DNA of 31,063 bases from an uncultured archaeon (GTDB lineage Archaea; Iainarchaeota; Iainarchaeia; Iainarchaeales; Iainarchaeaceae). The position numbers and the translations under genes are program-made. Where the stretch lies: contig CAZNZM010000011.1 in assembly GCA_964577555.1 (NCBI GenBank), positions 1-31,063 on the forward strand, given 5' to 3'. Shown in pieces: positions 10,611 to 10,712 of the stretch (positions are counted from its first letter, which is position 1; every line of letters starts with the position of its first letter). The notes beneath the pieces are model-generated. The model was not told the origin of the DNA and did not search any database. It saw only the letters and a list, made by a program, of their open reading frames with translations.

Positions 10611-10712
10611 CGGACCCGGAGGGATTTGAACCCTCGACCCCCTGCTCGCTTCCAAGACAAAAAAATTTAAAGTTAGAAGGCAGATGCTCTATCCAAGCTG
10701 AGCTACGGGCCC
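10611..10712 (-). tRNA. tRNA-Arg(UCU) with a 27-nt intron at position 37/38
   Basis: Hand-folded cloverleaf on the minus strand: acceptor GGGCCCG/CGGGTCC, D arm GCTC-AGCTTGGATA-GAGC, anticodon stem TCTGC/GCAGG, loop CT-TCT-A|intron|A, T arm GAGGG-TTCAAAT-CCCTC, discriminator G. The anticodon is at 10675-10677 and the intron at 10647-10673. BHB: a 4-bp helix CTTC/GAAG flanked by the 3-nt bulges TAA and CGA. No CCA is encoded. Confidence 0.9.

What the first reader, a model, noticed from the sequence alone, without database searches (positions are those of the whole stretch)
10611..10712. tRNA-Arg(UCU) carries a G3:U70 wobble pair, the universal alanine identity element
The acceptor stem reads 5'-GGGCCCG paired with CGGGTCC-3'. 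Position 3 is G and position 70 is U (plus-strand A at 10614). G3:U70 is the major AlaRS identity determinant in all three domains and is normally excluded from non-alanine tRNAs. Here it sits in a tRNA whose anticodon (UCU), probable A20 and G73 discriminator all say arginine. The tRNA is encoded 22 nt from argS and within 10 kb of the genome's AlaRS. Possible outcomes are Arg-to-Ala mistranslation at AGA codons, an AlaRS with altered acceptor-stem recognition, or protection by strong ArgRS competition. This AlaRS has an unusually short C-terminal region (see the separate finding).
Basis: partly seen in the sequence, partly recalled or inferred. Interest (0 to 1): 0.6.

Follow-up and report, generated by a model that had tools for sequence, protein, structure and literature searches.

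The report
Arginine tRNA carrying alanine's G3:U70 pair
This is a normal, intron-containing arginine tRNA of a tiny DPANN archaeon that does carry the G3:U70 pair known as the alanine charging mark. The same pair is found in arginine tRNAs of many other archaea, so it is a tolerated, recurrent feature and not a one-off anomaly or a recoding event.

Summary
Window 10712..10611 (minus strand) encodes tRNA-Arg(UCU) with a 27-nt anticodon-loop intron, acceptor stem GGGCCCG/CGGGUCC, G3:U70 (U70 is plus-strand A at 10614) and G73. It lies 22 nt upstream of argS.

It is not a sequencing error and not unique:
- Three of this genome's five predicted arginine tRNAs (UCU, CCU, UCG) carry G3:U70 with G73.
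- Same-genus and same-family relatives carry it too.
They span Haloferax and other cultured haloarchaea, Nanohaloarchaea, Woesearchaeota, Aenigmatarchaeota, Micrarchaeota, Iainarchaeota, Nitrososphaerota, Bathyarchaeia and Methanosarcinales.

AGA and AGG make up 82% of Arg codons here. They align to Arg in homologues (45-47%) and to Ala only at background level (about 3%), so the code is standard.

The AlaRS keeps the residues that read G3:U70 and A73 in the A. fulgidus structure. All G3:U70/A73 tRNAs sampled in the phylum are tRNA-Ala.

The most likely explanation is that AlaRS rejects these tRNAs mainly through G73 and that ArgRS outcompetes it. This is inferred, not shown. Low-level Arg-to-Ala misincorporation is not excluded.

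Earlier reports of this scan found the same thing on other DNA.

The parts
10611..10712 (-). tRNA-Arg(UCU) gene, 102 nt precursor and 75 nt mature
   Evidence: Rfam RF00005 at 53.8 bits. ARAGORN -i calls tRNA-Arg(tct). It is the only UCU isoacceptor found in the 95.5%-complete assembly.
10674..10712 (-). 5' exon: acceptor 5' strand GGGCCCG (G3 at 10710), D-arm with A20, anticodon stem, and anticodon UCU at 10675-10677
   Evidence: ARAGORN structure and sequence.
10647..10673 (-). 27-nt intron at the canonical 37/38 site
   Evidence: ARAGORN places the intron at 'ttcta-Intron-agcag'. RNAfold shows the anticodon loop pairing with intron GGAAG and a 3-nt bulge CGA at the 3' splice site. The same-genus relative G003 has an intronless copy.
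10611..10646 (-). 3' exon: anticodon stem 3' strand, variable loop, T-arm, acceptor 3' strand CGGGUCC (U70 at 10614) and discriminator G73 at 10611
10736..10743 (-). TATA-like box TTTAAATA, about 24-31 nt upstream of the mature 5' end (inferred promoter)
   Evidence: Read directly from the sequence. Not tested.
8888..10588 (-). argS, arginyl-tRNA synthetase (566 aa), starting 22 nt downstream of the tRNA on the same strand
   Evidence: Pfam Arg_tRNA_synt_N, tRNA-synt_1d and DALR_1. The tRNA-Arg(UCU)-argS linkage is conserved in family relatives.
1628..4186 (+). alaS, alanyl-tRNA synthetase with catalytic, tRNA-recognition and editing domains but without the globular C-Ala/DHHA1 part. The true start is probably the ATG at 1676.
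   Evidence: Pfam tRNA-synt_2c and tRNA_SAD, with no DHHA1. It aligns to A. fulgidus AlaRS 3WQY residues 9-788 of 906, with the Tyr95, Asn359, Gly361 and Asp450 equivalents conserved.

Best explanation
This is the genome's single, functional tRNA-Arg(UCU). It is transcribed from its own TATA-like promoter just upstream of argS, spliced at the canonical 37/38 intron, and charged with arginine by ArgRS through A20 and C35/U36.

Its G3:U70 pair is a natural variant that recurs in archaeal arginine tRNAs. It always occurs with a non-A discriminator, here G73.

The resident AlaRS is a conventional G3:U70-reading enzyme that also contacts A73. I infer that G73 is the main negative element: it reverses both hydrogen-bond patterns used on A73. 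Tight, anticodon-driven capture by ArgRS would add to this and keep alanylation of these tRNAs too low to matter.

Shown: the fold; the pair; its recurrence within the genome, family and domain; the standard meaning of AGA/AGG; the conserved AlaRS contact residues.

Inferred: that G73 and ArgRS competition are what protect the tRNA.
For: The fold and pair are confirmed.

Within this genome:
- tRNA-Arg UCU, CCU and UCG all have G3:U70 with G73.
- The three tRNA-Ala have G3:U70 with A73.
- tRNA-Ala(UGC) and tRNA-Arg(UCU) share base pairs 1-6 exactly.

In relatives:
- U70 occurs in the same genus (G001, G002, G003).
- It occurs in the same family (G007, G010, G019).
- It occurs in other families of the phylum (G083-85, G087, G122, G031, G024/63/65).
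- It alternates with C70, G4:U69 and G5:U68.

Across Archaea:
- The GTDB scan gave 107 of 121 hits as tRNA-Arg, across many archaeal phyla.
- In Haloferax, 18 of 22 species carry it and all copies are U70. It sits next to a tRNA-Ala with the same first six pairs.

Discriminator split: in 215 phylum genomes, all 88 listed G3:U70/A73 tRNAs are tRNA-Ala. All 14 G3:U70/G73 tRNAs are tRNA-Arg.

AlaRS keeps the residues that contact A73 and G3:U70 in 3WQY: RWRPDVYW (Tyr95), PSNVGGGY (Asn359, Gly361) and LYDSHGI (Asp450).

Literature:
- In N. equitans AlaRS-alpha, replacing A73 with any other base strongly lowers alanylation. A. fulgidus AlaRS bonds A73 N6 and N1 (PMC11392972).
- A73 atomic-group changes severely affect AlaRS (PMC9976931).

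Code meaning:
- AGA plus AGG are 82% of Arg codons.
- AGA aligns to R at 47% and to A at 3.5%. AGG aligns to R at 45% and to A at 2.7%. This is the same Ala background as CGT and CGC.
Against: - No aminoacylation data exist for any of these tRNAs.
- In E. coli and yeast, G3:U70 transplanted into tRNAs with non-A discriminators (tRNA-Cys with U73, tRNA-Pro with C73; the discriminator identities are from my own knowledge) still gives alanine insertion (PMC8583063, PMC5389508, PMC7954030). So N73 is not a universal block.
- tRNA-Lys also has G73 and an almost identical body, yet showed C70 in all 26 sampled cases. G73 alone therefore does not explain why only Arg tRNAs carry U70.
- The U70/C70 by A73/G73 table from metagenomes was too sparse to test avoidance of A73.
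- The codon-alignment test cannot detect misincorporation of a few per cent or less.
Confidence: 0.7

Rival explanations
1. Partial double identity. AlaRS charges a small fraction of the three G3:U70 arginine tRNAs, giving a low, tolerated level of Arg-to-Ala substitution across the proteome.
For: - G3:U70 is sufficient for alanylation in many transplant experiments (PMC8583063; PMC7954030).
- The acceptor stems of tRNA-Ala(UGC) and tRNA-Arg(UCU) are identical for pairs 1-6.
- ArgRS has no editing domain.
- In the AlaRS gene alone, conserved Arg sites favour CGY codons.
Against: - 88% of Arg codons (AGA, AGG, CGA, CGG) would be affected, which would be costly.
- Genome-wide, AGA/AGG sites are at least as conserved as Arg as CGY sites are. 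Alignment to Ala is at background level, so the hint did not hold.
- The same tRNA design is fixed in free-living Haloferax.
- A73 matters for archaeal AlaRS.
Confidence: 0.15
2. The G:U wobble in the upper acceptor stem of tRNA-Arg is positively maintained. It could be a structural or identity feature of the arginine system, or a negative element against another enzyme such as class I LysRS, whose tRNA is nearly identical. This would add to the tolerance explanation and does not replace it.
For: - The effect is strongly Arg-specific. With G73 and the same D-arm frame, U70 hits are 107 Arg against 5 Lys. C70 hits in the phylum are 11 Arg against 26 Lys.
- In relatives the wobble moves between 3:70, 4:69 and 5:68 but often persists.
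- This genome's two tRNA-Lys instead carry G2:U71.
- U70 is invariant across Haloferax, a GC-rich genus where AT mutation pressure cannot explain it.
Against: - Several relatives have fully Watson-Crick stems (G009, G016, G196, G197).
- U70 was only about 4% of GGGC-type tRNA-Arg in a metagenome sample.
- tRNA genes are near-identical within a genus anyway.
- Known Arg identity sets do not use the acceptor stem (PMC9976931).
- The counts come from related genomes and from different samples.
Confidence: 0.2
3. The lineage's AlaRS no longer uses G3:U70, so the pair carries no alanine meaning here.
For: - AlaRS lacks the globular C-Ala domain.
- N. equitans AlaRS-alpha alone charges minihelices independently of G:U (PMC11392972).
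Against: - All three tRNA-Ala of this genome keep G3:U70, as do all 88 sampled in the phylum.
- The Asn359 and Asp450 equivalents are conserved.
- The enzyme is one intact polypeptide, not split.
- Relatives with the same short enzyme have C70 tRNA-Arg.
- Haloferax shows the same tRNA pattern.
Confidence: 0.04
4. Sequencing or assembly error at 10614, or a pseudogene.
For: None beyond the rarity expected from textbooks.
Against: - U70 is present in three separate tRNA-Arg genes on three contigs.
- It is present in independent assemblies of the same genus and family.
- The gene scores well above the Rfam threshold, has an intact cloverleaf, and is the only UCU isoacceptor although AGA is 48.5% of Arg codons.
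Confidence: 0.01

Closest known systems
Canonical archaeal tRNA-Arg(UCU), acceptor GGGCCCG/CGGGCCC with G73 (for example family relative G009)
   Same: Same body, D-arm with A20, anticodon loop CUUCUAA, G73, T-arm, and position next to argS. It differs by a single base.
   Different: U rather than C at position 70. This copy also has a 27-nt intron, which the same-genus G003 copy lacks.
G3:U70/G73 tRNA-Arg of other archaea, for example Haloferax tRNA-Arg(CCG) (L042, L086) and Nanohaloarchaea, Woesearchaeota and Aenigmatarchaeota tRNA-Arg(UCU/CCU)
   Same: Identical acceptor stem GGGCCCG/CGGGUCC with G73. Each coexists with a tRNA-Ala that has the same first six pairs plus A73.
   Different: Different anticodons and lineages. 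The Haloferax genomes are 3.2-4.1 Mb; that Haloferax is free-living and has a full-length AlaRS is from my own knowledge, not checked here.
tRNA-Ala of the same genome (UGC at C9:32527-32598)
   Same: G1:C72, G2:C71, G3:U70, C4:G69, C5:G68 and C6:G67 are identical.
   Different: A73 against G73, U7:A66 against G7:C66, anticodon UGC against UCU, and no A20-type D-loop.
Mistranslating G:U tRNAs: yeast tRNA-Pro(UGG) C70U (PMC5389508) and vertebrate G4:U69 tRNA-Thr/Cys charged by AlaRS (PMC7337962, PMC8583063)
   Same: A non-alanine tRNA carries the AlaRS-type wobble pair in the acceptor stem.
   Different: In those cases alanylation was measured. They are minority gene copies or are corrected by ThrRS or ATD editing. 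Here the tRNAs are the sole decoders of 88% of Arg codons, and the codons clearly mean Arg.
Nanoarchaeum equitans AlaRS (split alpha/beta) and its A73 dependence (PMC11392972)
   Same: A DPANN AlaRS with unusual architecture. The discriminator A73 is important for charging.
   Different: The AlaRS here is one polypeptide that lacks only the globular C-Ala part. Its specificity has not been measured.

Membership tests
tRNA (Rfam RF00005) | Cloverleaf matching the covariance model above the gathering score | tested here: met
   53.8 bits against 29, full model 1-71. The ARAGORN cloverleaf has seven acceptor pairs.
tRNA-Arg (arginine identity) | Anticodon with C35 and U36 or G36 | tested here: met
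   The anticodon loop is CUUCUAA, giving UCU.
tRNA-Arg (arginine identity) | A20 in the D-loop, read by the ArgRS N-terminal domain | tested here: met
   The D-loop is AGCUUGGAUA with A after G18G19. ArgRS has the Arg_tRNA_synt_N domain.
tRNA-Arg (arginine identity) | Is charged with arginine by ArgRS | not testable with these tools
   Only indirect evidence: AGA/AGG codons align to Arg in homologues.
tRNA-Ala (alanine identity) | G3:U70 wobble pair | tested here: met
   G at 10710 pairs with U at 10614.
tRNA-Ala (alanine identity) | Discriminator A73 | tested here: not met
   G73 at 10611. All three tRNA-Ala of the genome and all 88 sampled in the phylum have A73.
tRNA-Ala (alanine identity) | Alanine anticodon NGC (not needed by AlaRS, but it defines the decoding role) | tested here: not met
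   The anticodon is UCU.
Mistranslating or dual-identity tRNAs (G3:U70 or G4:U69 on a non-Ala body) | Measurable alanine charging, or Ala insertion at the non-Ala codon | tested here: inconclusive
   At the level of code meaning this is not met: Ala aligns to AGA/AGG at 2.7-3.5%, the same as for CGT/CGC. Low-level mischarging cannot be tested.
Archaeal intron-containing pre-tRNA | Intron at 37/38 within a bulge-helix-bulge-type structure | tested here: inconclusive
   The position is canonical. The fold shows the exon-intron helix and the 3-nt 3' bulge, but the 5' bulge is not resolved in the minimum-free-energy structure.

The most novel reading that the evidence does not exclude
In Archaea, G3:U70 is not sufficient for alanine identity. 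Archaeal AlaRS would have a near-absolute A73 requirement, which frees arginine tRNAs to carry the pair. Its strong Arg-specificity (absent from near-identical G73 tRNA-Lys, fixed across Haloferax, sliding to 4:69 or 5:68 in relatives) would mean the wobble is actively maintained in the arginine system. Alternatively, it would cost a low level of Arg-to-Ala statistical mistranslation.
Probability: 0.2. Interest if true: 0.65.

Novelty: new member of a known kind. Interest (0 to 1): 0.4.

Why it matters
Reviews state that a G3:U70 pair is enough to make a tRNA an AlaRS substrate, and that non-alanine tRNAs therefore avoid it (PMC8583063, PMC7954030).

This tRNA and its many archaeal counterparts are natural counter-examples. 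They have an acceptor helix identical to tRNA-Ala for six pairs, differ only at N73 and 7:66, and read most arginine codons without any sign of recoding.

That gives a clean natural system for asking how archaeal AlaRS rejects a G3:U70 helix. Cultured Haloferax species carry the same design, so the question could be addressed in a laboratory organism.

For this window alone, the result is that the gene is an ordinary working tRNA-Arg.

Tried and rejected
- **ARAGORN default mode** missed the gene. Intron mode found it.
- **ARAGORN's second 'tRNA-Arg(tct)'** on contig C6 is a tRNA-Gln(CUG) with a D-loop intron, so there is no second UCU isoacceptor.
- **A very loose G3/U70 pattern** across the phylum was mostly noise and was truncated. 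Only a few clear tRNA-Arg rows were used.
- **U70/C70 by A73/G73 table from a metagenome scan**: 33 C70/A73, 65 C70/G73, 1 U70/A73 (with a poor anticodon stem) and 3 U70/G73. This is too few U70 cases to test avoidance of A73, and many hits are bacterial ACG tRNAs.
- **Hint that conserved Arg sites in AlaRS prefer CGY over AGR**: it disappeared in the 171-ORF comparison.
- **An alignment of Arg, Ala and Lys tRNAs** was spoiled because I gave the wrong strand for three loci. It was not used.
- **Literature searches** found no paper describing G3:U70 in archaeal tRNA-Arg. Absence from this open-access library is not proof that it is unpublished.

Full report
**1. What is there**

Rfam's tRNA model matches window 10712..10611 on the minus strand at 53.8 bits (gathering score 29) over the whole model. 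ARAGORN in default mode misses it. With introns allowed it calls tRNA-Arg(tct): 75 nt mature, with a 27-nt intron inserted after A37.

The acceptor stem is GGGCCCG/CGGGUCC with discriminator G. This gives G1:C72, G2:C71, G3:U70, C4:G69, C5:G68, C6:G67, G7:C66 and G73.

Other features:
- The D-loop carries A20 after G18G19.
- The RNAfold minimum-free-energy structure is the cloverleaf with an exon-intron helix and a 3-nt bulge at the 3' splice site.
- A TTTAAATA box lies about 24-31 nt upstream.
- The argS ORF (8888-10588, minus strand; Pfam Arg_tRNA_synt_N, tRNA-synt_1d, DALR_1) starts 22 nt downstream of the tRNA.
- AlaRS is at 1628-4186.

**2. It is neither an error nor a one-off**

The window is contig C11 of a 979-kb, 34.5% GC, 95.5%-complete assembly. 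Earlier notes place it in DPANN/Iainarchaeota. Two relatives' contigs match 'Candidatus Iainarchaeum'/archaeon records by length.

Reading the acceptor ends of all 41 Rfam tRNA hits gives G3:U70 in six genes:
- the three tRNA-Ala (UGC, CGC, GGC), all with A73;
- three tRNA-Arg (UCU here, CCU on C2, UCG on C4), all with G73.

tRNA-Arg(GCG) and a probable tRNA-Arg(CCG) have C3:G70. tRNA-Ala(UGC) and tRNA-Arg(UCU) have identical base pairs 1-6. ARAGORN's second 'tRNA-Arg(tct)' on C6 is a tRNA-Gln(CUG) with a D-loop intron. The window gene is therefore the only UCU isoacceptor found.

**3. Relatives**

I searched a strict pattern: G1-G3, TAGCTCAR, GTTCRAATC, Y70, C71, C72, G73.

U70 was found in:
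- the same genus: G003 (UCU, intronless), G001 and G002 (CCU);
- the same family: G007, G010 and G019;
- other families of the phylum: G083-85, G087 and G122.

The loose search added G031, G024/63/65 and G064.

C70 was found in G009, G016, G018, G121, G196 and G197. G015 and G017 have G4:U69 or G5:U68 instead.

In total, 14 pattern-matched tRNA-Arg have U70 and 11 have C70. All 26 tRNA-Lys caught by the same frame have C70. These genomes are related, so the counts are descriptive only.

**4. Archaea at large**

Of 121 matches, 107 are tRNA-Arg: CCG 48, CCU 33, UCU 24 and GCG 2. Five are tRNA-Lys and the rest are scattered.

Hosts include:
- cultured Haloferax, Halobellus, Haloarchaeobius, Salinigranum, Halorubellus and Haloprofundus;
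- Nanohaloarchaea, Woesearchaeota, Aenigmatarchaeota, Micrarchaeota and Iainarchaeum;
- Nitrosopelagicus, Bathyarchaeia and Methanosarcinales;
- a few bacteria.

In the genus holding Haloferax denitrificans, 18 of 22 species genomes carry tRNA-Arg(CCG) GGGCCCG/CGGGUCC with G73, and every copy has U70. Their tRNA-Ala(UGC) is GGGCCCA/UGGGUCC with A73.

A metagenome sample of GGGC-type tRNA-Arg gave U70 in 4 of 102 distinct sequences. The state is therefore a minority overall, but it is recurrent and locally fixed.

**5. Does AGA still mean arginine?**

AGA is 48.5% and AGG 33.3% of Arg codons in long ORFs. With CGA and CGG, 88% of Arg codons are read by G3:U70 tRNAs.

| Codon | Aligned positions | Aligned to Arg | Aligned to Ala |
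|---|---|---|---|
| AGA | 2255 | 47% | 3.5% |
| AGG | 1504 | 45% | 2.7% |
| CGT | 314 | 33% | 2.5% |
| CGC | 229 | 36% | 2.6% |
| GCN | 832-3450 per codon | 2.0-2.8% | 38-45% |

AGA and AGG are arginine codons. They are not avoided at conserved Arg sites. A hint of such avoidance in the AlaRS gene alone did not survive this larger test. The test cannot see misincorporation at the per-cent level.

**6. The synthetases**

AlaRS aligns to A. fulgidus AlaRS (3WQY) over residues 9-788 of 906 at E = 5e-160. It has no DHHA1 hit, so it lacks the globular C-Ala part.

In the printed alignment, the residues that read the tRNA in 3WQY are conserved:
- Tyr95, in RWRPDVYW;
- Asn359 and Gly361, in PSNVGGGY;
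- Asp450, in LYDSHGI.

The roles of these residues come from PMC8583063 and PMC11392972.

Family and class relatives have AlaRS of the same length (G018, G196, G197). Those relatives have C70 tRNA-Arg. The short C-terminal end therefore does not go with U70.

**7. How it most likely works**

The only differences between tRNA-Ala and these tRNA-Arg in the part of the helix that AlaRS reads are N73 and pair 7:66.

- In A. fulgidus, A73 N6 bonds the Gly361 carbonyl and N1 bonds the Tyr95 hydroxyl. A guanine reverses donor and acceptor at both positions.
- N. equitans AlaRS-alpha loses most activity when A73 is replaced by any base (PMC11392972).
- In the phylum, every listed G3:U70/A73 tRNA (88) is tRNA-Ala. 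Every G3:U70/G73 tRNA (14) is tRNA-Arg.

I therefore take G73 as the main negative element, helped by ArgRS capturing its tRNA through A20 and the anticodon.

This is inference. In E. coli and yeast, G3:U70 on tRNAs with non-A discriminators (U73 or C73, from my own knowledge) still gives alanine (PMC8583063, PMC5389508). G73 alone also does not explain why tRNA-Lys never shows U70.

That Arg-specificity leaves room for a second reading: that the wobble is maintained in the arginine system. A third reading, low-level Arg-to-Ala error, is also not excluded.

**8. Comparison, novelty and verdict**

The gene is an ordinary member of tRNA-Arg. It fails two of the three alanine features (A73 and the anticodon).

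It resembles the mistranslating G:U tRNAs of yeast and vertebrates only in carrying the pair. Unlike them, it is the sole decoder of a dominant codon.

I found no paper describing G3:U70 in archaeal tRNA-Arg in the searchable library. Reviews state that the pair is sufficient for alanylation.

Earlier reports of this scan reached the same conclusion on other genomes (e1-712621, e1-2716640). This window is a further instance. It adds two points: three isoacceptors in one genome share the pair, and the short AlaRS is unrelated to it.

Noticed in passing
window 7121-8806 (-): A full-length RelA/SpoT-type protein (HD_4, RelA_SpoT, TGS and ACT domains; 561 aa) lies immediately downstream of argS. 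Long RSH enzymes are typically bacterial, so one in a DPANN archaeon is unusual.
   Followed up: no
G000 C1:154537-154684 and C1:157093-157230: Both tRNA-Lys genes have acceptor GGGCCCG/CGGGCUC with G73. That is G2:U71 on a body almost identical to tRNA-Arg. In this genome the Arg and Lys acceptor helices therefore differ only in where the G:U wobble sits.
   Followed up: no
G000 C6:22401-22530 and C2:106528-106672: Two tRNA-Gln genes (CUG and UUG) with long introns. The C6 one has an intron in the D-loop and is mis-called by ARAGORN as tRNA-Arg(tct). Many tRNAs of this genome carry introns of 17-130 nt.
   Followed up: partly
window 8888-10712 (-); L033, L034, L036, L031/L108, L153: The tRNA-Arg(UCU) gene directly upstream of argS is a conserved arrangement in the family. 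The two are about 1 kb apart in same-genus G003 and in a nanohaloarchaeon. This suggests co-transcription of the tRNA with its synthetase.
   Followed up: partly
L034 (G015), L036 and L040 (G017): Family relatives whose tRNA-Arg has C70 instead carry G4:U69 (UCU) or G5:U68 (CCU). G4:U69 is the pair that eukaryotic AlaRS mischarges.
   Followed up: no
window 1628-4186 (+): AlaRS lacks the globular C-Ala/DHHA1 subdomain. It aligns to A. fulgidus residues 9-788 of 906. This is shared by family and class relatives, so it is a lineage trait. The annotated TTG start is probably too far upstream, and ATG at 1676 fits better.
   Followed up: partly
G000 C3:89157-89253: A probable intron-containing tRNA-Arg(CCG) with acceptor GCCCUUG/CAAGGGC, discriminator U73 and a weak D-stem. 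Relative G064 also has a tRNA-Arg(UCG) with U73 plus G3:U70.
   Followed up: no
window 14334-14419 (+) and 19758-19867 (-): There are two further tRNA genes in the window: tRNA-Leu(GAG), and an intron-containing tRNA-Ser(UGA).
   Followed up: no
L052, L078, L087 (Rhodovibrionaceae) and L148, L159 (Synergistaceae/Dethiosulfovibrio): A few bacterial genomes also carry tRNA-Arg with G3:U70 and G73; the Rhodovibrionaceae ones have stem GGGCCCG/CGGGUCC, the others GGGCCUG/CAGGUCC.
   Followed up: no
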